From an uncultured Candidatus Saccharibacteria bacterium (GTDB lineage Bacteria > Patescibacteriota > Saccharimonadia > Saccharimonadales > JAUPVS01): DNA of 64,000 nt. The first letter of the stretch is position 1; each line of letters starts with the position of its first letter. This document shows, one piece after another, positions 3,001 through 16,223 of the stretch. The notes beneath the pieces are model-generated. The model saw nothing but the letters and a program-made list of their open reading frames with translations, searched no databases and was not told the origin of the DNA. A program made the translations under genes and the position numbers. The stretch is from positions 2,592 through 66,591 of the forward strand of contig CAYWVZ010000005.1 of NCBI GenBank assembly GCA_964462215.1. Direction: 5' to 3'.

Positions 3001-6000
3001 TTCTTTAGTGTCAACAACTACACCACAGGCTCAGACGTTAATCTTTTCCAGGTTGCCAGTAACGGTGACACCAACCTAGTCTCTGGTGCCCTCCAGACGG
3101 GCGGCACAACGCGCCTGACTAACGCCGGTGTTCTGCAAAACGTCACCAATGCCGACGCCGGTACGTTCTTCACGGGCGGTACCCTGACGGTGGCCCGTGG
3201 CGGCACGGGTATTGGTACAGTCGGCTCCGCCGGTAGCGTAGCATTTAGTAATGGCACCACCTACGGCTTCACGGCCGCTGGCACCTCCGGCCAGTGTCTG
3301 GTGAGCGCTGGCACTGGCACACCAACCTGGGGTGCCTGTACCGGCCCGGGTGACATCTTGCAGAACGGCAACAGCTTTGGTGCCGACATGACGATTGGTA
3401 CCAACGACAACTTTGCGCTGAACTTCGAGACCAACGGCACCACCAAGATGACTATAGACGCCGGTGGTAACGTTGGCATAGGCGGCAGTGCATCAAACAA
3501 GCTGACAGTGACAGGGAACACTAACATAACTGGTAACTTGGGTATTGGGCTTGCAACCTCTCCGACCGTAAAACTTTCCATAGAGGATGACATTGCTACT
3601 GCTTTTAACTCCAGCGACATTGCAGCCAGCGGCCTGCTGGCAGCAATTCGTAATGGCCAAAACAGCGTTGGTAATGCCTCTACAATACAACTTTCATCCT
3701 TTAACGCGAGAAGTACGATTAGCTCTGTCTACACCAGCACCAATAGTGCGGCCTTGGTGTTTGGTACCAATAATGGCAGTACCGCTGTGGTGGAGCGACT
3801 ACGCATTACGCCTGCCGGTAATGTAAATATCGTTAGCGGCGTGTTACAGACCGCCGGCGTCACTCGCCTGACTAGCGCTGGCGTTTTGCAGAACGTCACC
3901 AATGCCGATGCCGGGACTTTCTTCACCGGTGGCACTTTGACGGTTGCCCGTGGTGGTACCGGTATTGGCACTATAGGCAGTGCCGGTTCCGTAGCGTTTA
4001 GTAATGGCACGACTTACGGTTTCACCGGCGTCGGCACATCTGGCCAGTGTCTGGTCAGTGCCGGTGCCGGCACGCCAACCTGGGGCGCGTGTACTGGCCC
4101 GGGTGACATCTTGCAGAACGGCAACAGCTTTGGTGCTGACATGACCATCGGTACCAACGACAATTTCGCCCTTAATCTGGAAACCAATGGTACTACTAAA
4201 CTGACCGTAGGCACCAACGGTGACGTCAATATCGTGAGCGGTGTTCTGCAAACGGCCGGAACAACTCGCTTAACCAGCGCCGGCGTATTGCAAAACGTCA
4301 CCAATGCCAATGCCGCTACATTCTTTACGGGTGGTGCGCTAACTGTGCCGCGCGGCGGTACCGGCGTCGCCAGTATGACGGTAGGTGGCATCCTTTTCGG
4401 GAATGGCAGCAGTCCCATAACTAATTCCGGAGTCTTGACTAATGGTCAACTACTGATCGGTGACGGCAGCGGCGCACCAACTGTCGGTACGCTGACAGGC
4501 GGTACCGGTATCGGCGTGGTCAATGGGGCAGGGACGATTACCCTCAATCTAGCCAATACTGCAGTTACGCCCGCTTCCTACGGTTCGGCCAGCCAAGTTG
4601 CTACCTTCACCGTTGACCAGCAGGGCAGGCTGACGGCCGCCAGCAGCGTACCGATTGCCATCAATGCCAACCAAGTTACGGCCGGAACCCTAGCTATCGC
4701 TCGCGGTGGCACCAACAGTACGGCTACACCCACTGCTGGGGCTATCGCCTATGGCACCGGTTCGGCCTTTGCTTTCACTGCCGCCGGCACCAGCGGCCAG
4801 TGTCTGCTCAGTGCTGGCATTGGCGCTCCAACGTGGGGCAGTTGTAGCGGAGTCGGCGACATTGTCCAGGGCGGCAACAGCTTTGGCACAGCCATGATAA
4901 TTGGTACCAACGATAACCAAGCGTTGCAGCTCGAAACCAACGGCACCACCAAGATGACCGTGCTGCAGGGTGGGAACGTAGGAATAGGCACAACGAACCC
5001 AACCAGGAAGCTAGAAGTAGTTGGTGGTCAAATCTACACCGAGAGCACTGGAGGCCCCAGCGCCTTTATTGCTAACCGAACAGATGGAAGGGCCACTGCA
5101 CTTTTGGCTGGCAGTAGCAACTCAGCTTTCTTGTTTGATAGCAGTGGTCAGTTCCAGATACAGGCTCGTTCAAAAACGAATATTCTGGCTGGTTCGGGCA
5201 GCTCCTCGGCGGGGCTATTCACGATACTAGCTAACGGTAATGTCGGTATCGGCCCCAATATTACGCCGACGCAGCTGCTCGATGTGCAGGGCGGGAATAT
5301 TAACACTTCCGGTAATATCCTGACTGGCGGCACTACACGTTTGACCAACGCCGGTGTTCTGCAGAACGTTACCAATGCCGATGCCAGTACCTTCTTCACT
5401 GGTGGCCTGCTAGGCATAGCTCGTGGTGGTACGGGCATTGGCACTGTCGGCTCGGCCGGCAGCTTGGCCTTCAGCAATGGTAGTACCTATGCCTTTACGG
5501 CTGCTGGTTCCTCTGGCCAATGTCTGCTCAGTGCTGGTGCCGGCACCCCAACTTGGGGTAGCTGTAGCGGAGTGGGTGACATTGTCCAAGGTGGTAACTC
5601 ATTTGGTACGGTCATGACTATTGGTACCAACGACAACTTTGCCCTCAATCTAGAGACTAATGGCACGACCAAGCTTACAATTCTACCCGACGCAAGTAAT
5701 TATGTCGGCATAGGCACAACATCACCAACTGCCGGACTTCATATACTTCGTAGTGACACGCAGTTCTTGCTGATTGATAGATCTAGCAGTAACAATGCAC
5801 CCGTACAATATAGGAACACAATAGCTTCAATGTTCGCTGGTCTAGACGCTGCCGGCCACTTTGCAATTGGTCCGACTAATAACTTAAGCTCTGCTGGCCA
5901 GCTCCGAGTCCATCGTACTAGCGGAGATGTTGATGTAACCGGCGGTGCCCTGCAAACAGCCGGTACTACTCGCCTGACCAACGCTGGCGTATTACAAAAT

Positions 6001-9000
6001 GTTACCAATGCCGATATCAGTACCTTCTTTACCGGTGGTACGTTGCCGGTGGTTCGCGGTGGTACCGGTGTAACGAGCGTTGGCTCGGCTGGCAGCATTG
6101 CCTACAGTAACGGCTCTACCTACGCCTTCAGCTCGGCTGGCAGCACTGGCCAATGTCTGCTTTCGGGCGGTACCGGTTCGCCAACTTGGTCGACTTGTGC
6201 GCCGTCACCTGGCACCAGCCTTATGACTCTGCAAGGTACCAGCGGCACGCCGCAGTCTATCTTGGTGGGTGATACCGTCACAATTGCCGCCGGCACCAAC
6301 ATTACTACTACGGCCGGAGCCACCGACACCGTTACAGTGGCAGTGGTCGACAACCCGACCTTCGCGACCAGTGTTACTACCCCAGTTTTGAATGTCAGCA
6401 GCCGTATCAACGGTAATGCTTCCGACACCACTGCCGCACCAACCTACACCTGGACTGGCGACACCGCCACTGGTATCTACCGCCCAGGCGCCGGCCAGGT
6501 AGGCATAACCAGTGGTGGCACAACCATAGCGACTTTCAGTAGTACGGAAGTTAATTTATCATCCAGTGTTCGGCTTAATCTAGCAGGGGTGCCAGTGGTT
6601 GAGGGTAGTGCGGGTAGTGCTAACCCTAAGGTTTTCCGTAACCTTGCTTCATATTACTCAACGGCTAGTCCGGACACTGGTGCTATCGTTATAAAGACCA
6701 ACATACCGCGCGGTAACTTACTGAATCGTGTACGCCTGCTCGGATATGTATACGACTCTGGAAATCAATCACCTGTACTCGATGTTACTATATCGGGATA
6801 CTGGTACGATAGCGGCTACAGTTGGCCTAACCGGGGCTATGTTTATGAAGGTCGGCAGCCAAGCAACGTGCGCTTTGGTGTGGATGCCGGTGACAACGTG
6901 GTCATTATCGTAGGTGACGTGGCAGATACTTGGCACGATCCAAGCTTCCATATTACTGAATGGCTGGTGTCTAGAAACAATAGCACAGTTCCCGATTCTT
7001 ATGGTGACAATTGGGAGGTTGGTATAGAGAATGACCTTAGTGCTTACAGTAATATGTCATCTGTACCTGATACCACTAAGGGCTCCACAGCCAATCCATT
7101 CACGGCATTTAACGTAAGCGGCACCACTACATCGGGTTCGTTTATCCAAGGCGTGAACCAGGTCTGTGACGTCAGTAACAACTGTAACTACGCCACCGCC
7201 GGCCAGTTTGCCACGGCCATAGTTCAGGGCGGCAACAGCTTCGGTACTGACATGACGATCGGTACTAACGACAACTTTGACCTCAACCTTAAAACCAACG
7301 GTGTCACCCGTCTGATCATAAGAGCTAACGGTAACATCAACATACCCTCTAGCGCCCTGCAAACCGGCGGTACCACCCGCTTAACCAGCGCCGGTGTTCT
7401 GCAAAACGTCACCAACGCCAACGCTGGCACCTTCTTCACGGGCGGTACGTTGCCAAATGCCCAACTGGTCAACAGCGGTGCTTTGACGGTTACGGCTGGT
7501 ACCGGTTTGAGTGGTGGCGGGTCAGTGGCGCTAGGCGGCACCACCACGATTGACCTAGCTAACACCACGGTAGCCGCCGGTTCTTATGGTTCGGCCAGCC
7601 AGGTCGCCACCTTTACGGTTGACGCCCAAGGCCGCTTGACTGCTGCTGCGGACACCAGTATCGCCATAGATGCTACGCAAATTACCGGCGGTACGTTACC
7701 GGTTGCCCGCGGCGGTACCGGTGCCGCCACCTTTACCAGCGGCGGCATATTGTATGGCAACGGCACGGGCGCGGTGCAAGCCACACCGGTGCTGACCAAC
7801 GGCCAGTTACTCATTGGCGACGGCAGCGGCGCACCAACCGTTGGCACACTGACGCAAGGCACCGGCATAGACATTGCCAACGGCGCCGGCACTATCACCG
7901 TAGGCCTAGACACTACCTACCTTGGCAGCAACTACTTTGCCCAGGGCGGCAACAGCTTTGGCGGGGCAGCTACGCTGGGCACCAACGACAGCAACGTCTT
8001 AAACCTGGAAACTGCCGGCACCACCAAGGTAACCATAGACACCAGTGGCAACACCAATATAGTCAGCGGCGCCCTGCAAACCAACGGCACCACCCGGCTG
8101 ACTAACGGCGGCGCCCTGCAGAACATCTCTACCATTACGGCTTCCAGCACAGTTACCGCCGCGCTGTTCTCCGGCTCCGGCGCTAGCTTGACCAGCCTTA
8201 ACGCTTCTAACTTGTCATCTGGCACGGTAGCTAACGCCCGGATCAGCGGCGCCTACACTAACTTCAGCAACATTACCGGTTCCGGCAATGTAGACTTCGC
8301 CCGATTTTTGGGCAACACGGCAGACTCAGCCGGCGCCCCGAGCTTCTCGTGGACGGGCGATCCCAACACCGGCATGTACTGGATTGGCGCCGACCAGATT
8401 GGCTTCAGCACCGGCAGCGCCCTGCGCGTAGGTATAAGCAGTTCCGGTCTTGATGTAGCCAGCGGCAACCTACTAACCGGCGGCACTATCCGTGTTACGA
8501 GCGCTGGCGCTCTGCAGAACATTACCACCGTAACCACCTCCGGTGCGATTAACGGCCAAACCATCTCGTCGGCGGCAAACTTCACCGGCACCCTGAACGT
8601 GGTAACCAGCGTGACCAGCCCGACCTACAATGTCGGTACGCGCATCCAAGGTACCAATGTGGGTAGTCCTAGTGTACCGACGTACACTTGGAGCGCAAAC
8701 CCTGACACCGGTATATATTACGTTGGTATTGCTTCTGCTATCGGCTTTTCCATTGACGGCTCGCTCAAAGCGACCATTAGCACCGGCGGCTTCGGGGTTA
8801 GTGGTTCTATAAGCTTTGATCAGGCTTTAGGTCAGGGCTCATCGGGCGCGCCAACATATAGTTTTTTTAACGATACCAACACCGGTATGTACCGGGCTGG
8901 CGCCGACCAAATCGGCTTTAGTGCCGGTGGTACCACAGGAATGAGGGTCGACACCGGGGGGGTTGACGTGATTGGCGCCCTGGCAGTCACCGGTACCCAG

Positions 9001-10113
9001 ATAACAGCTGTTCCTGGCACCGGTGTGGCGAATTACGCAGCGTCATTCTACAATGGTGATGGTTCGTTTGCAACTCGGTACGGTCTGCTGGTGCAAGGTG
9101 GTCTGTCGGCCGGGACGGGAACAACCTATTATTTGACCGCTCGAGACGGGGATGGCAGCAGTGTCGGGTATCTGGCCAATATTAACGGCACCTTTGCCGT
9201 AACTGACGTATCGGATGTCCGTACTAAGACTAATATCGAGGATACCGAAGAGAACGGACTTGATGTAATAAACGGCCTGCGCGTAGTGGACTTTAACCGT
9301 ATCGACAGCCCTGGCGGCCCGCGTATCACCGGTTTCATCGCCCAAGAGGTCCAGGGTGTCTACAGCAAGGCTGTCACCGTTGGTGATGACGGTATGCTCG
9401 GCCTACAAAAAGACGCCTTTATACCGGTGCTGGTCAAAGCCGTCCAGGAGCAACAGGGTATGATAACCGCCTTGCAAGGTGATAACATCCAGCAGACCGG
9501 TACCATCGGCCAATTGGACACTCGGGTTGCCAGCCTTGAACAGCAGGTGAATAACCCGGTCTTGCCGCAGAGTGCCAACTTTGCCGACATCAACATCAGT
9601 AACTTGGCGACCATCAATACCCTGAGCGTTACCGGTTCGGCCACCATTGCTACCTTGACCGTGAGCGGTAACGCCAACGTTGGCGGCAACCTGATTGTTA
9701 GCGGCGACACCACCGTAGCCAACCTGTTCGTGCAGGGTAAGATCATCAGCCGCGGCGCCAAGCCGACGGCCGATCGCGGTACCGCCCTACAAAACGCCGA
9801 CGCCACAGCCGAGGTAGAAGTCAGCGGCACCGACAGTGCCGGTACACTGGTTATTACCACCGGCGCACTGGCCAACCCGGCTCAGCCGTTGACCAGCGGC
9901 ATCCTGGCCGAAGTCACGTTCTCGTCACCGTTCCCGGTCATGCCGCGGGTTGTCATCACGCCGACCACCGCCGACGCCGTCGGCCTGCCGGTCTTTATCG
10001 AAAAGACCGCCACCGGCTTCAAGCTAATAACCACCGGTGACCCGGTTCCGGGCATGACATATTCCTTCGATTACATAATTGTCGGCGGCGAGACCGTCAG
10101 CTCCACAAATTAA
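1..10113 (+). CDS. Giant tail-fibre-like repetitive surface protein (>3370 aa; 5' end lies outside the window) with an internal peptidase-S74-type intramolecular chaperone domain
   Basis: A single uninterrupted ORF runs from base 1 to TAA at 10111-10113. Composition is G/T/N/A-rich. Recurrent fibre-type motifs are present: GNVGIGTTNP..L.V, YGSASQVATFTVDQQGRLTAA, and P(T/S)Y(T/S)W.(G/A)D..TG(I/M)Y. An S74-like block lies near the C-terminus. Confidence 0.9.
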   Translation: MGATGQTFTLQGDAASTLTATGGGFTTTIGFNGTPTGNVAYNFDRSVTAGTYTICTTYGNCSGTGGGVTTPGGTTGRIAKFTGSSVIGDSILSEAGSVITVLGDAVVQGGSLSVGEASTTTGGITLYNDTNGNTITLQAGATGGNLTFTLPTADGTSGQCIKTDGFGNFSFGDCLGGGGGGVASLNGLTGTLNILGAAGQITVTPGGSDITIALDDTAVTPGSYGSASAVATFTVDQQGRLTAATTTSIAIDANQITTGTLTVERGGTGAGTFTSGGILYGNGTGAIQAMPVLTNGQLLIGDGSGAPTAATLTQGTGIDITNGAGSITVAVDTTYFGSNYFAQDGNSFGAAAILGTNDNFDLNFETNGTTKMTVLANGNVGIGNASPQAKLHVSGTGRFVSVGTDDFAGTTGLFVQAGNSNTAVSALTLRNRNAGSGAGTDIDFNLGGTNMVIGRIRYQRDSGGAFTAFYGYNGSTVAERLRITSNGDLNITAGAGTLQTAGVTRLTNSGVLQNVTNADASTFFTGGTLTVARGGTGIGSVGSAGSLAYSNGTTYAFTGVGSAGECLISDGANTPQWGNCIAGAGDILQGGNSFGTDMTIGTNDNFALNFETNGTTRMIVTNAGDVGIGTSSVNPSGFGTRSLAVADTNTNGRVQLDLIGNRSSSGNVVGQLAGYQTASNRIGAVSFVRGTSANSGYLLFATANSGTLTDRLSIGQTGNVDILGGDLQTAGVTRLTNAGVLQNVTNADAGTFFTGGTLTVARGGTGIGSVGSAGSVAFSNGSTYGFTGVGTSGQCLVSAGTGTPTWGACTGPGDILQNGNSFGADMTIGTNDNFALNFETNGTTKLTVLANGNVGINNTNPQTVLDVEGVITARGNSGQFEAYNGSGNRYFRVNTSGNQGYLEIANGAGASRVLLDSNGVSYLNGGSVGIGTTNPAGGKLEVRTNRDVAQAFAVTGNTSSEGVRIFTTDSSAVIHSFQDESSGSAGNLVIRLGDKVGQTPFFSVNNYTTGSDVNLFQVASNGDTNLVSGALQTGGTTRLTNAGVLQNVTNADAGTFFTGGTLTVARGGTGIGTVGSAGSVAFSNGTTYGFTAAGTSGQCLVSAGTGTPTWGACTGPGDILQNGNSFGADMTIGTNDNFALNFETNGTTKMTIDAGGNVGIGGSASNKLTVTGNTNITGNLGIGLATSPTVKLSIEDDIATAFNSSDIAASGLLAAIRNGQNSVGNASTIQLSSFNARSTISSVYTSTNSAALVFGTNNGSTAVVERLRITPAGNVNIVSGVLQTAGVTRLTSAGVLQNVTNADAGTFFTGGTLTVARGGTGIGTIGSAGSVAFSNGTTYGFTGVGTSGQCLVSAGAGTPTWGACTGPGDILQNGNSFGADMTIGTNDNFALNLETNGTTKLTVGTNGDVNIVSGVLQTAGTTRLTSAGVLQNVTNANAATFFTGGALTVPRGGTGVASMTVGGILFGNGSSPITNSGVLTNGQLLIGDGSGAPTVGTLTGGTGIGVVNGAGTITLNLANTAVTPASYGSASQVATFTVDQQGRLTAASSVPIAINANQVTAGTLAIARGGTNSTATPTAGAIAYGTGSAFAFTAAGTSGQCLLSAGIGAPTWGSCSGVGDIVQGGNSFGTAMIIGTNDNQALQLETNGTTKMTVLQGGNVGIGTTNPTRKLEVVGGQIYTESTGGPSAFIANRTDGRATALLAGSSNSAFLFDSSGQFQIQARSKTNILAGSGSSSAGLFTILANGNVGIGPNITPTQLLDVQGGNINTSGNILTGGTTRLTNAGVLQNVTNADASTFFTGGLLGIARGGTGIGTVGSAGSLAFSNGSTYAFTAAGSSGQCLLSAGAGTPTWGSCSGVGDIVQGGNSFGTVMTIGTNDNFALNLETNGTTKLTILPDASNYVGIGTTSPTAGLHILRSDTQFLLIDRSSSNNAPVQYRNTIASMFAGLDAAGHFAIGPTNNLSSAGQLRVHRTSGDVDVTGGALQTAGTTRLTNAGVLQNVTNADISTFFTGGTLPVVRGGTGVTSVGSAGSIAYSNGSTYAFSSAGSTGQCLLSGGTGSPTWSTCAPSPGTSLMTLQGTSGTPQSILVGDTVTIAAGTNITTTAGATDTVTVAVVDNPTFATSVTTPVLNVSSRINGNASDTTAAPTYTWTGDTATGIYRPGAGQVGITSGGTTIATFSSTEVNLSSSVRLNLAGVPVVEGSAGSANPKVFRNLASYYSTASPDTGAIVIKTNIPRGNLLNRVRLLGYVYDSGNQSPVLDVTISGYWYDSGYSWPNRGYVYEGRQPSNVRFGVDAGDNVVIIVGDVADTWHDPSFHITEWLVSRNNSTVPDSYGDNWEVGIENDLSAYSNMSSVPDTTKGSTANPFTAFNVSGTTTSGSFIQGVNQVCDVSNNCNYATAGQFATAIVQGGNSFGTDMTIGTNDNFDLNLKTNGVTRLIIRANGNINIPSSALQTGGTTRLTSAGVLQNVTNANAGTFFTGGTLPNAQLVNSGALTVTAGTGLSGGGSVALGGTTTIDLANTTVAAGSYGSASQVATFTVDAQGRLTAAADTSIAIDATQITGGTLPVARGGTGAATFTSGGILYGNGTGAVQATPVLTNGQLLIGDGSGAPTVGTLTQGTGIDIANGAGTITVGLDTTYLGSNYFAQGGNSFGGAATLGTNDSNVLNLETAGTTKVTIDTSGNTNIVSGALQTNGTTRLTNGGALQNISTITASSTVTAALFSGSGASLTSLNASNLSSGTVANARISGAYTNFSNITGSGNVDFARFLGNTADSAGAPSFSWTGDPNTGMYWIGADQIGFSTGSALRVGISSSGLDVASGNLLTGGTIRVTSAGALQNITTVTTSGAINGQTISSAANFTGTLNVVTSVTSPTYNVGTRIQGTNVGSPSVPTYTWSANPDTGIYYVGIASAIGFSIDGSLKATISTGGFGVSGSISFDQALGQGSSGAPTYSFFNDTNTGMYRAGADQIGFSAGGTTGMRVDTGGVDVIGALAVTGTQITAVPGTGVANYAASFYNGDGSFATRYGLLVQGGLSAGTGTTYYLTARDGDGSSVGYLANINGTFAVTDVSDVRTKTNIEDTEENGLDVINGLRVVDFNRIDSPGGPRITGFIAQEVQGVYSKAVTVGDDGMLGLQKDAFIPVLVKAVQEQQGMITALQGDNIQQTGTIGQLDTRVASLEQQVNNPVLPQSANFADINISNLATINTLSVTGSATIATLTVSGNANVGGNLIVSGDTTVANLFVQGKIISRGAKPTADRGTALQNADATAEVEVSGTDSAGTLVITTGALANPAQPLTSGILAEVTFSSPFPVMPRVVITPTTADAVGLPVFIEKTATGFKLITTGDPVPGMTYSFDYIIVGGETVSSTN
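1492..6200 (+). repeat. Seven in-frame copies of a ~130-aa coding module separated by variable-length unique inserts
   Basis: The module reads LQT.G.TRLT.AGVLQNVTNA.A.TFFTGG.L.V.RGGTG...GSAGS.A.SNG.TY.F...G.SGQCL.S.G.G.PTWG.C.G.GDI.Q.GNSFG..M.IGTNDN.AL..ETNGTT. Copies start at about 1492, 2179, 3091, 3844, 4246 (interrupted by another module), 5320 and 5950 (truncated). Further partial copies start at about 7357 and 8060. Amino acids are highly conserved, while many third codon positions differ between copies. Confidence 0.85.
9190..9555 (+). other. Peptidase S74-like intramolecular chaperone auto-processing domain, internal to the giant ORF
   Basis: The sequence reads VTDVSDVRTKTNIEDTEENGLDVINGLRVVDFNR...ITGFIAQEVQGVYSKAVTV...GLQKDAFIPVLVKAVQEQQGMITALQ...LEQQV. 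Ser (codon 9211-9213) and Lys (codon 9226-9228) have the S-x4-K spacing of the endosialidase / tail-spike C-terminal chaperone dyad. Confidence 0.7.
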
Positions 10114-10120
10114 GGTGTAT

Positions 10121-11050
10121 ATGACAAGCCGACTACTATATACTACATACAAAAGCATGAGCATTATGACACATCTAGTATATATTTTGCGACGTTGCAG
10201 TTTGGCTTCCGTGACGGCTTGTATAGTGGCTGTGCTGGCCGTGCCATTTGTTGCCGGAGTGGCCTTTGCCGGTAATCATCCTGCAGGCGCCCAGGTCGCC
10301 AACGCCGCCGCGTCATTATCGTATGGCTTCCCGACGCAAGATGCCGAACTGGTGGTAGGCATGGCTGCTGCCTCAATCAACGGCAGCACGCCCGATAGCA
10401 GCCAGCAACCGCCCTTGGTGGAGCGGGCCAGCAGCGACCAAGCCGATCGTTACATTGGTATCGTAACCAGCATTAAGCCGATGGCCGCCCGCCCGGGTGT
10501 CAGCGAAGTGTTTGTTACCCAATCCGGGCAGACCGAAGCCTACGCCACAGACCTAAATGGTGAGGTCCAAAAAGGGGACAGTCTTGCCTTATCGCCGTTG
10601 CGCGGAGTACTCATGAAAGCCTCTGACGCCACTCGGACAGTTGTCGGTACTGCCCAATCTGACTTTAACGTGGCCGCCGGTGAGCGGGTAGAGATAGCGA
10701 CCGGACAGAACGGCGCCCAAACGGCGCGGATCGGCTCCGTTTCGATCAACGTAAACTTGCAAACCAGGCCCGAAATCACCGGCAATGCATTCCTTATTAA
10801 TCTGGGTTCTGCTATTGCCGGCAAACCCGTTAGCCAGGGAAGGGTTATTGCCGCTGCCTTTATCCTTGCCTTGCTATTGGTTATTGAGGGGGCAATTATC
10901 TACAGTGCCGTTCATAGCAGTGTCACTGCTATTGGCCGGAACCCGCTGGCCCGCGGGGCAATCTTTAAAGAACTTATTAATGTTTCGTTGCTGATACTGC
11001 TTGTAATGACGGCCGGCCTAGGGGTCGCGTATCTTGTTGTATGGTTTTAA
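10121..11050 (+). CDS. Hypothetical membrane protein (N-terminal signal/TM segment, soluble middle, two C-terminal TM helices) located between the two fibre-like genes
   Basis: The ORF-track frame begins at 10079. ATG 10121 lies 8 nt after the upstream stop and is preceded by AAGGTG. Hydrophobic segments are ASVTACIVAVLAVPFVAGVAFAG and VIAAAFILALLLVIEGAIIY...LINVSLLILLVMTAGLGVAYLVVWF. I recognise no family. Confidence 0.6.
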   Translation: MTSRLLYTTYKSMSIMTHLVYILRRCSLASVTACIVAVLAVPFVAGVAFAGNHPAGAQVANAAASLSYGFPTQDAELVVGMAAASINGSTPDSSQQPPLVERASSDQADRYIGIVTSIKPMAARPGVSEVFVTQSGQTEAYATDLNGEVQKGDSLALSPLRGVLMKASDATRTVVGTAQSDFNVAAGERVEIATGQNGAQTARIGSVSINVNLQTRPEITGNAFLINLGSAIAGKPVSQGRVIAAAFILALLLVIEGAIIYSAVHSSVTAIGRNPLARGAIFKELINVSLLILLVMTAGLGVAYLVVWF

Positions 11051-11067
11051 AACAGTACCGGTTATAT

Positions 11068-11073
11068 TATAAT
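11068..11073 (+). promoter_or_regulatory. Candidate -10 box (TATAAT) upstream of the second fibre-like gene
   Basis: The sequence ttatatTATAATgacaac sits in the 67-nt gap after the membrane-protein gene, about 44 nt upstream of ATG 11118. Confidence 0.3.
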
Positions 11074-11117
11074 GACAACAGAGTGAGAAGCCTAATCACC
11101 ACAACTAAAACAAAACT

Positions 11118-14100
11118 ATGGCCAACATAAACCCACTTCCAGCTCGTCCATCGACCGACCCCATGCAAACAGGGAGTCTTTTTAATGCCCCGGGCTCTGA
11201 GGTTGTGACCGATGTACGGTCCCCGACAGAAGGGGTAGACAGTCTGGCCGATAGTCTGGAAGAACCTACCACCGCTGACCCGCCAAGCGGTTTTTCGGCT
11301 GCTCGTAACTCCTCAGGTGGTGGTGCCGTGAGTCCGCCGCCCCAACAACCGCTTAGTACCACTCGGCGCGTCCAGTTGGCGGTCGCCGTTATAGCGTTAC
11401 TGCTGCTAGGCGGCTTTGCCTTTGTTATTACACGCGGAGCCCGGAATTTCTCGAACCAGAACGATATCATCGCCAATACTACCCCAACCCAAGCAGTCAT
11501 GCCGACATTGAACTCCTTAGAGGTTTCGGCCAAACAACCGTTGTTATTGCAGGGTGCGGCCAGCTCCGAGCTACAATTTATTGGCGCGCAAGGCTCCACT
11601 ACACTGTTATTTGCCGAACCGACACTTGTCAATTCGATTACGTTTCCTAATGCCAGCGGCCTGGTCTGCGTAAACAGTAATAACTGCGGTTATGCTACCC
11701 AAGCCGAGCTAACCCAGCTGGCCGGTACGGTGCAACAGGTACAGCCCGGTCAGCCGGCAGTACCCGGAGCCACCGGTGTAACTTCGCTGAACGGAGCGGT
11801 GGGTACTATAGTTGTTCAAGGTAGCCCCAATCAGATAATTGTAAGCGGCAGCAATGTTATAACTATAGCCACGCCCCAAGACATCGCCTTTAGCAGTTCG
11901 CCGCAGTTTGCGGGGCTAACGCTCACTGGCACCGGCACTCAAAACGGTTCGGCTATCTGTGATGCCAGTAATAATTGTAATTATGCGCCGGCCTCTGGAT
12001 CAGGCAACTATATTTGGAACGGCACTGGTTTGCAGTCCAATGCCAACTTTAATATTCGCGGCGCTGCTGCCGGCAACGTGGTTGGTGCCATCCGCGGCGC
12101 CGCCGGCCAAACGGCCAACATCTTTGAGGTCCAAGAAGAAAGCGGCTCGACGGTTATCAGTGTAGATAGCGGCGGCAACCTTGGCGTTGGCAGTGCCGCG
12201 CCCAATGCCCGCCTCGAAGTAGCGGGCGGCCGCACGTTCCTGGGCACCGGCACTCTTACCGCCCACGACCAGAACAACGTCATCCTCTTTAGTAATGCCG
12301 CCGGTACTGCTGCCCAGGCCGGTAACTTCCAAAACGCGCTAATCCTCTATGGCGGCGGCGGGCAAACCCGCACCCTGCGCCTAAGCCAGAACTACAACGG
12401 CGCTGCCTACATCGACACTAATTTTTCTGAACTGCGTTTGCGCACCCTAGCCAATAATGCCAACATAGTGCTGGAGGCTGACGGCGCCGGGCAGATCATA
12501 CTAAACAATATTACACAGGTAGCTGCGCTGGGTGCAGCTACCGGCAACAGCCTGGTGTGCCGTAATAACCTCAACCAGCTGGCCGCTTGTACAGCCATAC
12601 CGGGCACCGGCGATATTAACCAGGACGGCAACATGTTCGGCGAGAACGTTGTCATCGGCGCTCAAGACGACTTCGGCATGGACTTCATTACCCACAACAC
12701 CGTGGTGCAGAGCCTATCGAACACCGGTCAGGCTACATTCCAAAACGCCGTCGATTCGGCCACCGCCTTTCAGATCCAAAACGCCGCCGGCACAGCCGTC
12801 TTTAATTACGATACTACCGACCAAACGCTGACTCTGCGGGCCGGCACTGACCAGGGTGTCACCGGCAGCGAGCTGGCCAACAACGATTTCAGCGGCGACT
12901 GGACAGGCAGCGGCTGGACACTCGGCGCCAGCGATGCCACTCACAACACCGGCAATACCGACACGCTGGAGCCGACTACGCCGCTAACTATAACCGGCGG
13001 CAACTACTACATTGTTTCCTATCAGGTAAGCAACCGTAATGCCGGCAGCGTCAACTTTACTCTGGGCAATACTGCCGGTACGGCGGTCATTAATAATGCG
13101 ACCACTGCTCAGGTTGTCCGGGCCGGCAACGTCGACAACCTGATACTCACGCCCACTAGCGATTTTGACGGTACCATCTCGAATGTCTCGGTTAAGCAAG
13201 TTACACCGTTCAACTCTGTCCTGACAGGGCAAAAAACCGACGGAGAGACTCGCCTGGAAGTCAGGGTCGCTGCCGAAAACGGTACGCTACTGATAGGCCG
13301 AAACGTCGGTATGCTCAACCAAGGCGGTAACAACGTTGCCCTGGGCTACGACACGTTTGCGCACAACACTACCGGCAACGGCAACACTGCGCTTGGGGCG
13401 AATGCATTGCAGCATAATGTCACTGGCAGTGTTAACACTGCTCTGGGCTACCTGGCTCTACAGTTTAATACTACCGGTTCTAACAATGTGGCTGTCGGCT
13501 GGCTAGCGCTCGGACATAATACATCGGGTGGTGATAATGTCGCCGTAGGGCGTTCCGCTCTGGAATTAAACCTAACCGGCGAGGGCAATGTGGCCCTGGG
13601 CCAAAGCGCTTTACACAATAATACCACTGGTAGCCGCAACATTGCCATTGGCCAAAATACGATGGGGGACAACACCAGCGGCGAGCTTAACGTAGCAATC
13701 GGCGGGTCTAGTCTCAACCGCAATACCACAGGGCAACTAAACGTGGTGCTTGGTCATGATGCCGGCCGGAGTATAACCACTGGTGATGGAAACCTGGTTT
13801 TGCAAGGCATGCGCGATACGGGCGTTTCGACAACCGGTACCCAAAACGTAGCATTGGGCTGGGATACGCTTAATCGTGTAACCAGCGGCCAACGCAACGT
13901 GGCAGTGGGTAGCGGAGCGGGCCAGGGCATAACCACCGGCGAATGGAATCTGGCAATCTTCGGTATGAGCAACACCGGTGCTTCAACCACCGGCAGCAAC
14001 AACATCGCCATCGGCCGTGAAACCGGTAACCAGCTGACCAGCGGCGAACTCAACACTATCGTCGGCCACACGGCGCTTAACCGGGCTAGCACCGGCAGCC

Positions 14101-15419
14101 GCAATATTGTATTAGGCGAAGGTGCGGGCAACAGCATCACTACCGGCACCTTTAATATCGCCCTGGGTGGCTTGAGGAACGCCGGTGTCTCGACCACCGG
14201 CAGCAACAACATCGCCTTAGGCGACGCCAGTTTGCATCAGCTGACCAGCGGCAGCAACAACATTGCCGTCGGGTCATTATCTTTAGGATCCACAACGGGG
14301 GACAACAACGTTGCTATCGGACTATCGAGCGGCAGGTCTAATACCACCGGTTCCAACAACACCTATTTGGGTACCAGTGCCGGCGAACAAGACGGGAACT
14401 GGGTAACTGTTGCTGCCCTGGAAAGAAGTACGGCCATAGGCTATGCCGCCCAAGTACAACAGAATGACAGTATGGTACTTGGCAAGGTACAGACGGACGG
14501 TTCGCAAACTAAGGTGGGTATTGGCACGACTATGCCGACCAACTTATTGAGTGTAGCACCGGTATTCTATAACACCGGCCAGGCCAGCCAGAGCGGTACA
14601 ACTATCAGCGGATCGGGCACCACCTGGACGGCCGATATGGTTGGCAAAGAGATTGTCTTCGCCGAAGGTATTAAGGCCATGATTACCGGCTTTACCAATG
14701 CCACTACGCTGACGGCAGGCACCAGTCAGAGCGTATCGCAACAGGATTATCGCATTCACTACGCTGGCTTGCAGGTAACAACTGCCGGCAAAATTGGTGC
14801 CAACACCATGACTATCAATAACTACTTCTCGCTCAATACGGCCGAAACCGCCGACAACGACGCGCAAGGCCTGGTGTCGACCGGCGGGGCAGGCAACAAG
14901 GGAATGGTCATCCAGGGCGTATCCGGCCAGACAGCCAACCTGCAGGAATGGCAGGACAACACCGGTGCCGTGCTGGCGTTCGTTAGTGCAGCGGGTGATC
15001 TGGAGGTAGTCAATGCTACCGTTACCGGCACCCTTACCGTTACCGGAGCGGCTACCTTCAATAACACCCTGACCGTTAATGGCCACATTATTACCGGCAA
15101 CACCAGCGGTTCAACCACGGTGGCTGCCGAGGCCGGTGCCGGGGCAGGTGCCAGTGCCTCTGTGAGCGGTAACGATACCAGCGGTACCATTACGCTTAAC
15201 ACCGGTACCGGGGCTGCCGCGGGCGACCTGGCTACCGTAACCTTTGCCAACGCCTACGGCGCTGCTCCGCAAGTGGTCATCACACCCAAGGCCGTACCCG
15301 GCGGCGGCACATTCCCGCAGTACCACTATGACTCCAGCACCGGCACTTTCACGCTCAAAAGCTTCAACGCACTAACTGACAGCGCCACCTACACCTTTAC
15401 CTACTTCATCACCCAATAG
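11118..15419 (+). CDS. Large (1433 aa) membrane-anchored fibre / beta-helix-like surface protein
   Basis: The N-terminus is disordered and P/S-rich, followed by one TM helix (VQLAVAVIALLLLGGFAFVI). Cys-pair motifs are VCVNSNNCGYA and ICDASNNCNYA. Fibre motifs include GQTANIFEVQEESGSTVISVDSGGNLGVGSAAPNARLEV. A central tract of 17-residue repeats is present. The C-terminal domain is shared with the 1-10113 protein. Confidence 0.85.
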   Translation: MANINPLPARPSTDPMQTGSLFNAPGSEVVTDVRSPTEGVDSLADSLEEPTTADPPSGFSAARNSSGGGAVSPPPQQPLSTTRRVQLAVAVIALLLLGGFAFVITRGARNFSNQNDIIANTTPTQAVMPTLNSLEVSAKQPLLLQGAASSELQFIGAQGSTTLLFAEPTLVNSITFPNASGLVCVNSNNCGYATQAELTQLAGTVQQVQPGQPAVPGATGVTSLNGAVGTIVVQGSPNQIIVSGSNVITIATPQDIAFSSSPQFAGLTLTGTGTQNGSAICDASNNCNYAPASGSGNYIWNGTGLQSNANFNIRGAAAGNVVGAIRGAAGQTANIFEVQEESGSTVISVDSGGNLGVGSAAPNARLEVAGGRTFLGTGTLTAHDQNNVILFSNAAGTAAQAGNFQNALILYGGGGQTRTLRLSQNYNGAAYIDTNFSELRLRTLANNANIVLEADGAGQIILNNITQVAALGAATGNSLVCRNNLNQLAACTAIPGTGDINQDGNMFGENVVIGAQDDFGMDFITHNTVVQSLSNTGQATFQNAVDSATAFQIQNAAGTAVFNYDTTDQTLTLRAGTDQGVTGSELANNDFSGDWTGSGWTLGASDATHNTGNTDTLEPTTPLTITGGNYYIVSYQVSNRNAGSVNFTLGNTAGTAVINNATTAQVVRAGNVDNLILTPTSDFDGTISNVSVKQVTPFNSVLTGQKTDGETRLEVRVAAENGTLLIGRNVGMLNQGGNNVALGYDTFAHNTTGNGNTALGANALQHNVTGSVNTALGYLALQFNTTGSNNVAVGWLALGHNTSGGDNVAVGRSALELNLTGEGNVALGQSALHNNTTGSRNIAIGQNTMGDNTSGELNVAIGGSSLNRNTTGQLNVVLGHDAGRSITTGDGNLVLQGMRDTGVSTTGTQNVALGWDTLNRVTSGQRNVAVGSGAGQGITTGEWNLAIFGMSNTGASTTGSNNIAIGRETGNQLTSGELNTIVGHTALNRASTGSRNIVLGEGAGNSITTGTFNIALGGLRNAGVSTTGSNNIALGDASLHQLTSGSNNIAVGSLSLGSTTGDNNVAIGLSSGRSNTTGSNNTYLGTSAGEQDGNWVTVAALERSTAIGYAAQVQQNDSMVLGKVQTDGSQTKVGIGTTMPTNLLSVAPVFYNTGQASQSGTTISGSGTTWTADMVGKEIVFAEGIKAMITGFTNATTLTAGTSQSVSQQDYRIHYAGLQVTTAGKIGANTMTINNYFSLNTAETADNDAQGLVSTGGAGNKGMVIQGVSGQTANLQEWQDNTGAVLAFVSAAGDLEVVNATVTGTLTVTGAATFNNTLTVNGHIITGNTSGSTTVAAEAGAGAGASASVSGNDTSGTITLNTGTGAAAGDLATVTFANAYGAAPQVVITPKAVPGGGTFPQYHYDSSTGTFTLKSFNALTDSATYTFTYFITQ
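13326..14385 (+). repeat. About 21 tandem 17-residue (51-nt) coding repeats, G-x-x-N-(V/I)-A-(L/V/I)-G-x-x-(A/T/S)-(L/G)-x-x-N-(T/L)-(T/S), predicted beta-helix / adhesin-head-like
   Basis: Read directly from the translation: GNGNTALGANALQHNVT / GSVNTALGYLALQFNTT / GSNNVAVGWLALGHNTS / GGDNVAVGRSALELNLT and so on through GDNNVAIGLSSGRSNTT. Confidence 0.8.
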
Positions 15420-15464
15420 ACCATTGTCAAATCGTTGCCGTAACAGGGTTAAGGTGGTAAGCTT

Positions 15465-16223
15465 ATGGTTATGCAGACCATCGCGGTGCTCAACCAAAAA
15501 GGGGGGGTGGGCAAAACCACCACGGCCATAAACCTGGCGGCCTATCTGAATAAGATGGGTAAGTCAGTATTGCTGGTAGATTTAGATCCCCAGGGTAACG
15601 CCACCAGCGGTTTGGGTCTGGATAAAACCGTTATCGATGCCGGTACGTACGAACTATTGCTCGGTACGGCAGATTTAAGCCAGGTAACCCAGACCATTAG
15701 CGACGGGTTTTATCTGCTACCGACTAACGCTGACCTGGCCGCTGTTGAGGTCGAGCTGGTCAACCGCCCCAAACGCGAAGAAGCCCTGCGCCAGGCGCTC
15801 AAGCCAGCCAGTTACGACTACGTTATCATCGACTGCCCGCCGGCACTCGGTTTGCTAACGGTTAATGCCCTGACTGCCGCCAACCGCATCATCATCCCTG
15901 TGCAAGCCGAATATTACGCGCTGGAAGGCCTGGGCCAACTCCTGCAAGTGTTCCAAGGTGTACGCCGCAACCTTAATCCGCAGCTCGAAATTATGGGGGT
16001 AGTCATTACCATGTACGATAGCCGTACCAGTCTGTCCAATCAGGTTATAACAGAGGTCAAGAAGCATTTTACCAACAAGGTTTTCAAAACCATGATACCG
16101 CGCAACGTGCGCCTGGCCGAAGCGCCCAGCTACGGCAAGCCGATTTCCGACCACGACAAATGGTCCAAAGGCGCTCGTGCCTATAAACAACTAGCCAAGG
16201 AGGTTACAGAACGTGGCAACTAA
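15465..16223 (+). CDS. parA: Chromosome partitioning ATPase ParA/Soj
   Basis: A deviant Walker A motif (NQKGGVGKTTT) is present, and similarity to the ParA family extends over the full length. An AAGGTGG SD lies 7 nt upstream. The gene is followed by parB. Confidence 0.9.
   Translation: MVMQTIAVLNQKGGVGKTTTAINLAAYLNKMGKSVLLVDLDPQGNATSGLGLDKTVIDAGTYELLLGTADLSQVTQTISDGFYLLPTNADLAAVEVELVNRPKREEALRQALKPASYDYVIIDCPPALGLLTVNALTAANRIIIPVQAEYYALEGLGQLLQVFQGVRRNLNPQLEIMGVVITMYDSRTSLSNQVITEVKKHFTNKVFKTMIPRNVRLAEAPSYGKPISDHDKWSKGARAYKQLAKEVTERGN

What the first reader, a model, noticed from the sequence alone, without database searches (positions are those of the whole stretch)
9691..10110. A ~125-aa C-terminal domain is shared by the two fibre-like proteins (second copy at 15033-15416)
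The last ~130 residues of the two proteins align by eye without large gaps. Protein 1 reads L.V.G......L.V.G.II.....(~20 aa)..VSG(T/N)D(S/T)(A/S)GT(L/I).(I/L).TG........(I/L)A.VTF...(F/Y)...P.VVITP...........(~12 aa)..TG(F/T)(K/F).L.......(M/A)TY(S/T)F.Y.I. Protein 2 matches it with LTVNGHIITG...VSGNDTSGTITLNTG...LATVTFANAYGAAPQVVITP...TGTFTLKS...ATYTFTYFI. The upstream architectures of the two proteins differ. The V.F...F...P.V pattern loosely resembles H-type-lectin-like sandwich domains, so this could be a common tip (ligand-binding) or a common anchoring module. That resemblance is speculation.
Basis: seen in the sequence. Interest (0 to 1): 0.55.

Follow-up and report, generated by a model that had tools for sequence, protein, structure and literature searches.

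The report
Shared end-knob of bacterial surface fibres
Two giant surface-fibre proteins of a Saccharibacteria (candidate phyla radiation) genome end in the same ~115-residue beta-sandwich knob, a distant relative of H-type lectins that caps thousands of such fibres and a few tail proteins of phages infecting Actinobacteria, so it probably forms the fibre tip that touches another cell.

Summary
The last ~115-121 residues of protein 1 (nt 9721-10083) and protein 2 (nt 15066-15416) are homologous: BLASTP E=3e-8, and an HMM built without either copy scores them at E=4e-25 and 3e-38. No other copy lies in the window.

The domain defines a very large, Pfam-unannotated family (7,464 cluster representatives). 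It sits at the extreme C-terminus of proteins of 130-3,452 aa, mostly from Saccharibacteria/Patescibacteria. Most complete members have an N-terminal transmembrane anchor.

AlphaFold gives the same confident eight-strand beta-sandwich for both copies (pLDDT 89 and 92). H_lectin (PF09458) is the only recurrent Pfam match. It is sub-threshold for both window copies (14.6 and 16.0 bits against a cut-off of 24). One relative reaches the cut-off. Foldseek against the PDB is inconclusive.

Protein 1 carries an intact self-cleaving Peptidase_S74 chaperone domain upstream of its knob. About 42% of classifiable family members carry S74 or Peptidase_G2 at that position.

The same knob ends tailspike-like minor tail proteins of Curtobacterium and Gordonia phages. 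Cultivated Saccharibacteria grow on Actinobacteria.

Best reading: a distal, probably trimeric head that registers the fibre and binds a surface glycan. Ligand binding, trimer formation and cleavage are all untested.

The parts
1..10113 (+). Protein 1: giant fibre-like protein, at least 3370 aa, N-terminus outside the window
   Evidence: ORF list. The only Pfam hit reaching its curated cut-off is Peptidase_S74.
9151..9480 (+). Intramolecular-chaperone, self-cleaving domain (Peptidase_S74) of protein 1. Predicted catalytic Ser3071 at nt 9211-9213 and Lys3076 at nt 9226-9228.
   Evidence: Pfam PF13884 scores 49.8 bits against a cut-off of 22, E=4e-13. The 'SDVRTK' motif aligns to 'SDERLK' of PDB 8jov tail fibre. 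It matches the extreme C-termini of 17 PHROG families, 13 in the tail category. Coordinates.
9433..9555 (+). Helical, coiled-coil-like segment after the S74 core (VKAVQEQQ...LEQQVNN)
   Evidence: Read from the sequence. This is an inference; no coiled-coil predictor was run.
9592..9720 (+). Beta-helix-like 'LxVxG' repeat neck leading into knob 1
   Evidence: Read from the sequence. The equivalent region of relatives gives weak Bactofilin (beta-helix) hits, 10 of 58 members.
9721..10083 (+). Knob copy 1: C-terminal beta-sandwich domain of protein 1, followed by a 9-aa extension to the stop
   Evidence: Independent family HMM E=3.8e-25. AlphaFold model pLDDT 88.9 with 8 strands. H_lectin E=0.036.
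10079..11050 (+). Membrane protein gene between the two fibre genes. The true start is probably downstream of the listed TTG. It is conserved next to related fibre genes.
   Evidence: 37% identity, E=4e-41, to the ORF directly upstream of the orthologous fibre gene in L001. Homologues also occur in L002, L012 and L024. No Pfam, NCBIfam or PHROG hit.
11118..15419 (+). Protein 2: fibre-like protein of 1433 aa. Public calls start at Met16 (P0023).
   Evidence: No Pfam or NCBIfam family.
11376..11432 (+). N-terminal transmembrane helix of protein 2 (LAVAVIALLLLGGFAFVIT)
   Evidence: Mean Kyte-Doolittle hydropathy 2.73 over 19 residues.
14913..15065 (+). 'QGvsGQTANLQEWQ..G.VLA' motif and 'LTVTG' repeats that precede the knob in members lacking a chaperone domain
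   Evidence: Read from the sequences of protein 2 and relatives.
15066..15416 (+). Knob copy 2: C-terminal beta-sandwich domain of protein 2, ending ...TYTFTYFITQ followed by the stop codon
   Evidence: Independent family HMM E=3e-38. AlphaFold model pLDDT 91.9, pTM 0.85, same 8-strand order as copy 1. H_lectin E=0.012-0.013.

Best explanation
The two segments are copies of one ancient ~115-residue beta-sandwich domain, a divergent branch of the H-type-lectin-like folds. It forms the free C-terminal head ('knob') of phage-tail-fibre-like surface fibres of Saccharibacteria and other Patescibacteria. The fibres are held in the cell membrane by an N-terminal transmembrane helix, so the knob lies at the far end (inferred). 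Proposed mechanism, in three inferred steps. First, three chains associate, and the knob with its 'NGH-IITGG' neck acts as the C-terminal registration and capping unit of the beta-helical shaft. Second, the conserved loops and the C-terminus face the shaft. Third, the four variable, indel-rich loops face outward and bind a surface carbohydrate of another cell, plausibly the actinobacterial host envelope. In protein 1 and about 42% of relatives, a self-cleaving chaperone domain (S74 or G2) lies just upstream. In those proteins the knob may be shed with the chaperone after folding, or the protease may be used differently.
For: Homology. Family size and strict C-terminal position: 7,464 representatives at E<=1e-3, and all 150 listed matches end at or within three residues of the protein end. 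In 25 of 29 domain matches across the 28 independent genome loci the stop codon follows the last matched residue directly. The last residue is Q in 131 of 156 members and E in 18. Same confident fold for both copies. N-terminal anchor: protein 2, and 70 of 84 complete long relatives. Extracellular location: 74 of 156 members carry two or more Cys in the domain. Trimeric fibre context: Peptidase_S74 and Peptidase_G2 domains, tail-fibre PHROG matches and beta-helix repeats lie upstream. H_lectin is the only recurrent Pfam match, and one relative reaches the gathering score. The most variable columns and the indels lie in the loops beta1-2, beta3-4, beta5-6 and beta7-8. In an up-and-down sandwich these sit at the end opposite the shaft connection. 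They align with the HPA sugar-site positions D26, R63 and W83/H84 (inference). Phage counterpart: the family HMM hits the C-terminal end of Gordonia phage BobBob gp23 (E=2.7e-14). It also hits the pectate-lyase-type tailspike gp10 of Curtobacterium phage Eevee, which ends ...YEILQ-stop (E=8.5e-10), and a tail-module protein of an actinophage-like viral contig (E=3e-26). Weak Foldseek hits are dominated by C-terminal domains of tailspikes, pyocin fibre feet and phage receptor-binding heads.
Against: No binding, trimer formation or cleavage was tested. Both window copies are below the H_lectin threshold. Foldseek finds no significant PDB match. The HPA sugar-binding residues are not conserved. 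The knob is the most conserved part of the protein: between protein 2 and its relative P0042 the knob is 79% identical, the last 472 aa are 58% identical and the middle is unalignable. That pattern is the opposite of a rapidly evolving receptor tip. An intact Ser-Lys S74 dyad upstream of copy 1 predicts that its knob is cut off. Short relatives of about 330 aa place the same knob only a short beta-helix away from the membrane. The phage evidence rests on three independent lineages. In one of them the domain is N-terminal.
Confidence: 0.55

Rival explanations
1. Assembly-only cap. The knob is a C-terminal trimerisation and folding nucleus and end-cap for the beta-helical shaft. It has no ligand of its own, and the variable middle of each fibre carries the function.
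For: It is the most conserved part of otherwise variable proteins. The invariant residues (F, P, F, Y, Y and the GxDxxG hairpin) look like core or turn positions rather than a pocket. It always follows beta-helix repeats. C-terminal domains of tailspikes, the best weak fold matches, often serve trimerisation.
Against: About 42% of classifiable members already carry a dedicated chaperone domain (S74 or G2) directly upstream, which would make a second folding nucleus redundant. The loops at one end are variable and indel-rich, as expected for a binding face. There is recurrent H_lectin similarity.
Confidence: 0.2
2. Self-anchoring module. The knob binds a polymer of the producer's own envelope (peptidoglycan, wall polysaccharide or S-layer) and is the common attachment point of a family of otherwise different surface proteins.
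For: The pattern of a conserved module on variable proteins is typical of anchoring domains. The ~330-aa relatives place the knob within a few nm of the membrane. Lectin-type domains can bind wall glycans.
Against: The proteins already have an N-terminal transmembrane helix. In phage tail proteins the particle is attached through the N-terminus, and the domain sits at the other end in Eevee gp10 and BobBob gp23. There is no match to known wall-binding or sorting domains in Pfam or NCBIfam.
Confidence: 0.12
3. Shed pro-domain. This applies to protein 1 and other S74/G2-type members. The chaperone plus knob is cleaved off after folding, as in phage endosialidase and T5 pb1, and the mature fibre tip is the new C-terminus. 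The knob then acts only before cleavage or as a released soluble trimer.
For: Peptidase_S74 scores well above threshold with Ser3071 and Lys3076 in the canonical i, i+5 spacing. S74 starts 245-320 aa from the C-terminus in 14 members where it is fully present. G2 is found in at least 28 members.
Against: 58% of classifiable members, including protein 2, have no protease domain, so their knob cannot be removed this way. In the phage PHROG families the S74 domain is terminal, not followed by about 190 further residues. That difference suggests another use here.
Confidence: 0.1
4. Chance or compositional similarity of two Thr/Gly/Ala-rich tails.
For: Both proteins are low in complexity and rich in T, G, A and S.
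Against: BLASTP with compositional adjustment gives E=3e-8. An independent HMM gives E=4e-25 and 3e-38 over the full model. There are thousands of homologues with invariant columns.
Confidence: 0.01

Closest known systems
H-type lectin domain (Pfam PF09458; Helix pomatia agglutinin, discoidins, coral SLL-2)
   Same: Small all-beta sandwich of about 100 aa. The 'v-T-F-a-x-x-F/Y-x-x-x-P-x-V' and 'tGF' motifs are shared, and the seven HPA-length strands map one to one. It is the only recurrent Pfam match, and one relative reaches the gathering score.
   Different: Both window copies are sub-threshold. There is an extra N-terminal strand and an 'NGHIITGG' neck. The HPA sugar-binding residues are not conserved. 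Foldseek TM is only 0.32-0.44. The domain is fused to the end of giant membrane-anchored fibres instead of being a free lectin.
C-terminal domains of phage tailspikes and tail fibres (Curtobacterium phage Eevee gp10, Gordonia phage BobBob gp23; weak fold matches to phi297 gp61, Det7 gp208 and R-pyocin fibre feet)
   Same: Homologous domain at the distal end of beta-helical tail proteins, with the same C-terminal 'Y.x.Y...Q-stop' in Eevee gp10.
   Different: It is rare in phages. Two cultured lineages were found among 50,697 records, there is no PHROG family, and tblastn with tail 2 finds none. Here it is chromosomal, in a syntenic locus beside parA/parB, and the carrier is anchored in a cell membrane.
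Internal intramolecular-chaperone architecture of MYRF (Peptidase_S74 followed by further domains)
   Same: In protein 1 the S74 domain with an intact Ser-Lys dyad is internal and followed by about 190 residues, so cleavage would separate two functional parts. Knowledge of MYRF comes from the literature and was not tested here.
   Different: In MYRF the membrane anchor is C-terminal of the protease. Here the anchor, where known, is N-terminal, and the piece after the protease is a soluble knob.
Adenovirus fibre knob and other terminal heads of trimeric fibres
   Same: Works like: a globular C-terminal head that both registers the trimer and carries the receptor site (analogy only).
   Different: No sequence or fold relationship was shown.

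Membership tests
H_lectin (PF09458) | Pfam HMM score at or above the gathering cut-off (24 bits) | tested here: not met
   Tail 1 scores 14.6 bits (E=0.036) and tail 2 16.0-16.2 bits (E=0.012-0.013). Relative P0011 scores 24.2 bits and P0013 23.4 bits. 12 of 58 members match at E<=0.1.
H_lectin (PF09458) | Fold superposable on HPA, discoidin or SLL-2 | tested here: inconclusive
H_lectin (PF09458) | Conserved GalNAc-site residues (HPA D26, R63, W83/H84, Y89) | tested here: not met
   In a low-confidence global profile alignment these positions fall in the variable loops of the family. No invariant Asp, Arg, Trp or His counterpart exists. Only a strand Tyr may correspond.
H_lectin (PF09458) | Homotrimer with sugar sites at subunit interfaces; carbohydrate binding | not testable with these tools
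   Only monomer prediction was available, and no binding assay is possible.
Peptidase_S74 (intramolecular chaperone of endosialidase and tail fibres), upstream of copy 1 | HMM above threshold and Ser-Lys dyad | tested here: met
   49.8 bits against a cut-off of 22. S3071 and K3076 in 'SDVRTK' align to 'SDERLK' of 8jov.
Peptidase_S74 (intramolecular chaperone of endosialidase and tail fibres), upstream of copy 1 | Located at the extreme C-terminus and released by autoproteolysis | tested here: not met
   The domain starts 319 aa before the end of protein 1 and is followed by a helical segment, beta-helix repeats and the knob. Cleavage itself cannot be tested here.
Phage tail-fibre / tailspike terminal domain | Homologues at the distal end of phage tail proteins | tested here: met
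   The family HMM hits BobBob gp23 (E=2.7e-14, aa 332-429 of 438) and Eevee gp10 (E=8.5e-10, aa 442-528 of 528). Eevee gp10 also carries a pectate-lyase-type beta-helix.
C-terminal sorting or wall-anchor domains (T9SS CTD, LPXTG, SLH and similar) | Match to the family model or a C-terminal hydrophobic/sorting motif | tested here: not met
   No such Pfam or NCBIfam hit at E<=1. The tail ends in a beta strand plus Q/E with no hydrophobic segment.
Bactofilin (PF04519), the public annotation of the short relatives | Cytoplasmic polymer-forming beta-helix protein | tested here: not met
   The short relatives have an N-terminal transmembrane helix before the beta-helix and end in the knob. The Bactofilin score is at or below the cut-off: 27.2 against 27.9 bits for P0199, and 15.9 bits for P0240.

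The most novel reading that the evidence does not exclude
Saccharibacterial epibionts and phages of Actinobacteria use the same terminal knob to recognise the actinobacterial cell envelope. Under this reading the fibres are cell-borne equivalents of phage receptor-binding proteins. The knob's variable loops would help set which host a CPR bacterium can attach to, and the internal S74/G2 proteases would give a way to shed or unmask tips.
Probability: 0.25. Interest if true: 0.75.

Novelty: new variant of a known kind. Interest (0 to 1): 0.5.

Why it matters
How ultrasmall CPR/Patescibacteria recognise and hold on to their host cells is largely unknown beyond type IV pili. This domain marks, with one profile, thousands of otherwise unannotatable giant surface proteins, including two in this window. 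It also marks a conserved ~330-aa protein that public annotation calls a cytoskeletal bactofilin. It gives a compact, well-folded ~115-aa target for binding assays, antibodies and structure work. Its presence on actinophage tail proteins yields a concrete, testable hypothesis that the ligand is an actinobacterial surface glycan. If the knob is only a folding cap, the finding is still a useful domain definition but biologically ordinary.

Tried and rejected
- **PDB sequence searches.** Profiles A1 and A2 gave no meaningful hit. The family HMM against HPA gives E=4.2 at PDB scale.
- **Source contig.** The look-up of encoding contigs located neither protein 2 nor P0023.
- **Genome scan.** It was repeated with the last 300 aa of protein 2.
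- **Phage searches.** tblastn of tail 2 against 50,697 phages found nothing. The PHROGs scan of both tails found nothing. Further IMG/VR and phage searches with the phage copies and with alignment A3 found only the queries themselves.
- **Literature.** Four searches found no paper describing this domain in Patescibacteria. The Cell 2023 Tn-seq paper mentions essential adhesins with other domains only.
- **Sorting signal.** A C-terminal sorting signal (T9SS-like) was considered and rejected. There is no model match, no hydrophobic tail, and an N-terminal anchor is present.
- **Recent gene conversion.** This was rejected because the two window copies are only 32-34% identical and fall in different sub-groups.
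- **Metal site.** The conserved His of 'NGH' might form a metal site on a threefold axis, as in T4 and pyocin fibres. This is speculation only and was not tested.
- **Tandem repeats.** A DNA tandem-repeat scan of nt 1-15500 found nothing.
Full report
**1. What is in the window**

Nucleotides 1-10113 (+) are the 3' part of a giant ORF, protein 1, of at least 3370 aa. Nucleotides 11118-15419 (+) encode protein 2, of 1433 aa. A membrane-protein ORF lies between them (10079-11050). parA and parB follow at 15465-17097.

**2. Is the similarity real?**

- BLASTP of the last 270 aa of each protein gives a single significant HSP. It has 34% identity over 85 aa and E=3e-8 with compositional adjustment.
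- For a test independent of the two sequences, I built an HMM from 143 homologous tails. I left out both window copies and their near relatives.
- That HMM matches protein 1 at aa 3241-3361 (nt 9721-10083, E=3.8e-25). It matches protein 2 at aa 1317-1433 (nt 15066-15416, E=3e-38). Each match covers essentially the whole 115-position model.
- No third copy exists in any frame of the 64 kb.

The unit is about 115-121 aa. The two copies are only 32-34% identical and fall into different sub-groups, so they are old paralogues and not a recent duplication.

**3. The family**

*Size and distribution*
- Word-indexed searches found 1 and 15 relatives, named Saccharimonadales and Minisyncoccia where named.
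- A full HMMER scan of 1.84 billion cluster representatives with the 18-sequence profile found 7,464 proteins at E<=1e-3 and 572 at E<=1e-30.
- A scan of one genome per species with the last 300 aa of protein 2 returned 28 loci. Where the record title names a taxon it is Saccharibacteria or Patescibacteria, apart from one Amesbacteria and one Blastocatellia MAG. Seven titles name no taxon.
- That scan includes a syntenic orthologue, L001, with the order membrane protein, fibre, IleRS, ParA, ParB. The window is therefore chromosomal Saccharibacteria DNA, not a phage.

*Position at the C-terminus*
- In all 150 listed proteins, of 130-3,452 aa, the match ends at or within three residues of the last residue.
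- The family HMM gave 29 domain matches across the 28 loci, because some loci hold two copies or a split match. In 25 of them the stop codon follows the last matched residue directly.
- The final residue is Q in 131 of 156 members and E in 18.

*Conserved residues and location*
- Invariant or nearly invariant columns are the hairpin G-x-D-x-x-G, two loop glycines, F, P, F, Y, Y and the 'NGH' neck.
- 74 of 156 members have at least two Cys in the domain, which fits an extracellular location. The two window copies have none.

**4. Architecture of the carriers**

- Protein 2 has a strong N-terminal transmembrane helix at nt 11376-11432. So do 70 of 84 complete relatives of at least 600 aa.
- What lies between anchor and knob is highly variable: FG-GAP, Kelch, parallel beta-helix, LamG, or nothing recognisable.
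- Immediately upstream of the knob there are three alternatives among 125 classifiable members:
  - a Peptidase_S74 intramolecular chaperone (15 members, including protein 1);
  - a Peptidase_G2-type chaperone (37 members; best Pfam E=2.6e-9);
  - neither, but a 'QG..GQTANLQEWQ' motif (73 members, including protein 2).
- In protein 1 the S74 hit is strong (49.8 bits, E=4e-13). The catalytic Ser3071 and Lys3076 are present in the canonical spacing and align with 'SDERLK' of a solved tail fibre.
- In the matching PHROG families, 13 of 17 of which are in the tail category, this domain lies at the very end of the protein. Here about 190 more residues follow it: a helical segment, beta-helix repeats and the knob.

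**5. Fold**

- AlphaFold2 gives confident models for both copies. Tail 1 has pLDDT 88.9. Tail 2, run with a 58-sequence alignment, has pLDDT 91.9 and pTM 0.85. Both show the same order of eight strands.
- Foldseek against the PDB finds nothing at E<=1e-3.
- The weak list is dominated by terminal domains of tailspikes (phi297 gp61, Det7 gp208, Pam1), R-pyocin fibre feet, lactococcal phage receptor-binding heads and carbohydrate-binding modules. HPA, HAA and discoidin II appear at TM 0.32-0.44.
- Against predicted viral structures, two 'uncultured Caudovirales' proteins match well (E=2e-8 and 3e-7; TM 0.69). Several proteins named 'H-type lectin domain' appear among the weaker hits.

**6. Relation to H-type lectins**

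*Evidence for*
- PF09458 is the only Pfam family that recurs. Both window tails hit it (E=0.036 and 0.013), as do 6 of 18 and 12 of 58 family members, the phage copies and the short relatives. The hit always covers the same segment.
- P0011 is 39% identical to tail 2 over its whole length and scores 24.2 bits, just above the gathering cut-off of 24. P0013 scores 23.4 bits.
- I recalled the HPA sequence from memory and verified it as identical to PDB 2cgy_A.
- A local profile-profile alignment of the family against HPA, HAA and SLL-2 gives P=4.3e-4 but only 34% probability, because the template alignment is tiny.
- The family HMM against HPA gives E=4.2 at PDB scale. The alignment is register-consistent: 'GNDTsG' matches 'CGDDAG', and 'vTFa.ayg.aP.Vvl' matches 'ITFASPYCRPPVVLL'.

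*Evidence against*
- The GalNAc-site residues of HPA (D26, R63, W83/H84) fall, in a low-confidence global alignment, into the family's variable loops and are not conserved.

*Verdict:* distant homology to H-type lectins is likely. Membership in the strict sense is not established, and sugar specificity cannot be inferred.

**7. Which end faces out?**

With all-antiparallel connections, the loops beta1-2, beta3-4, beta5-6 and beta7-8 lie at one end of the sandwich. At the other end lie the beta2-3 hairpin (GNDTxG), the beta4-5 loop (F...Y/F G..P), the entry from the shaft and the C-terminus.

Column entropies and indels are concentrated in the first set. Mean entropy there is 1.8-2.4 bits, with a 6-aa insertion in tail 1 and a 2-aa insertion in tail 2. 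The beta2-3 hairpin scores 0.5 bits. This pattern of a conserved shaft-proximal face with variable distal loops is what a receptor-binding head would show. It coincides with where HPA binds sugar. This step is inference from secondary structure, not from coordinates.

**8. Phage counterparts**

- tblastn of tail 2 against 50,697 phage genomes finds nothing.
- An IMG/VR contig with GC 63% carries a protein whose first 100 residues are 51% identical to tail 2 (family HMM E=3e-26). That protein sits in a siphovirus tail module next to a Sipho_Gp37 minor tail protein. All 2,591 phage relatives of that neighbouring protein are from phages of Mycobacterium, Gordonia, Rhodococcus, Corynebacterium or Nocardia.
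- Using that copy as a query finds minor tail proteins of Curtobacterium phages Eevee, Yotsuba and JoyLin and of Gordonia phage BobBob.
- The Patescibacteria-only HMM scores BobBob gp23 at E=2.7e-14 and Eevee gp10 at E=8.5e-10, both at the C-terminal end. Eevee gp10 is a pectate-lyase-type beta-helix tailspike that ends '...YEILQ-stop', like the family.
- All three independent phage lineages infect, or look like phages of, Actinobacteria, the hosts of all cultivated Saccharibacteria (statement from PMC10633639).
- The sample is small and actinophages are over-represented among sequenced phages, so this is a lead and not proof. Further scans found no more copies.

**9. Things that complicate the tip model**

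- The knob is the best-conserved part of the protein between species. Between protein 2 and P0042 the knob is 79% identical, the last 472 aa are 58% identical, the N-terminal 200 aa are 34% identical, and the middle is unalignable.
- The S74 dyad predicts that protein 1 loses its last ~300 residues unless the protease is inactive or the fragments stay together.
- A very common set of complete ~320-345-aa Saccharibacteria proteins has an acidic tail, a transmembrane helix, about 90 aa of bactofilin-like beta-helix, 'NRHIDAGG', and the same knob ending 'FDYIVID'. NCBI and JGI call them 'polymer-forming cytoskeletal protein' or 'CcmA'. In them the knob can be only a few nanometres from the membrane.

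These facts keep an assembly-cap role and a self-envelope-binding role alive.

**10. Conclusion**

The finding is a true shared domain. It is best described as a Patescibacteria-wide, H-type-lectin-related C-terminal knob of N-terminally anchored, phage-fibre-like surface proteins.

| Reading | Probability |
|---|---|
| Distal trimeric head that registers the fibre and binds a surface glycan | ~0.55 |
| Assembly-only cap | ~0.2 |
| Self-anchoring module | ~0.12 |
| Shed pro-domain (S74/G2 classes) | ~0.1 |

It is a new variant of known kinds (H-type lectin folds; phage fibre and tailspike terminal domains), not a new category. Its main value is as a handle on host recognition by CPR epibionts.

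Noticed in passing
window 9151-9480 (Ser3071 at 9211-9213): Protein 1 has a Peptidase_S74 self-cleaving chaperone domain that is internal, 319 aa from the end, and not terminal as in phage fibres. Among 125 classifiable family members, 15 have S74 and 37 have a Peptidase_G2-type domain upstream of the knob.
   Followed up: partly
window 10079-11050: The membrane-protein ORF between the two fibre genes is conserved next to related fibre genes in other Saccharibacteria (L001, L002, L012, L024; 37% identity, E=4e-41 to L001). It has no family match. Its segment 'KGDSLALSPLRGVLMKA' resembles 'PGDFLTASATHPGYAMKAT' of the G2-type module found upstream of knobs in other members. The listed TTG start overlaps the end of protein 1 and is probably not the real start.
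   Followed up: partly
P0187, P0199, P0204, P0236, P0240, P0252; L029 8001-9032: A widespread family of complete ~320-345-aa Saccharibacteria proteins has an acidic N-tail, a TM helix, a short bactofilin-like beta-helix and the same knob. Public annotation calls them a cytoskeletal bactofilin (CcmA), which is probably a misannotation. In L029 the gene stands alone beside the ATP synthase operon. It is not present in this window.
   Followed up: partly
L032 7947-9134; L033 2660-4246; L034 2945-4261: The knob occurs in tail proteins of actinophages. It is C-terminal in Curtobacterium phage Eevee gp10 (a pectate-lyase-type tailspike) and in Gordonia phage BobBob gp23. It is N-terminal in a 395-aa protein of an actinophage-like IMG/VR contig.
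   Followed up: yes
window 14913-15030; P0024 throughout: A repeated motif 'QG..GQTA(N/D)L(Q/F)(E/Q)(W/A)Q.S.G.VLA.I...G.L' precedes the knob in members without a chaperone domain. It is iterated many times along some fibres such as P0024. It has no Pfam match.
   Followed up: no
window 1-9000: Protein 1 is built from several long, imperfect protein-level repeats (recurring '...GVLQNVTNADA.TFFTGGTLTVARGGTGIG...GNSFG..M.IGTNDNFALNFETNGTT...'). No DNA tandem repeat is detectable, and no Pfam family other than S74 reaches its curated cut-off.
   Followed up: no
family alignment: About half of the family (74 of 156) carries a conserved pair of cysteines flanking the beta1-2 and beta3-4 loops ('AAAC..P...GNDT.GTIT..TGTGC'). 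Both window copies lack them.
   Followed up: no
window 15465-17097: parA (252 aa) and parB (294 aa) lie directly downstream of protein 2, and the same order is seen in L001. This shows the fibre locus is chromosomal and syntenic across species.
   Followed up: partly
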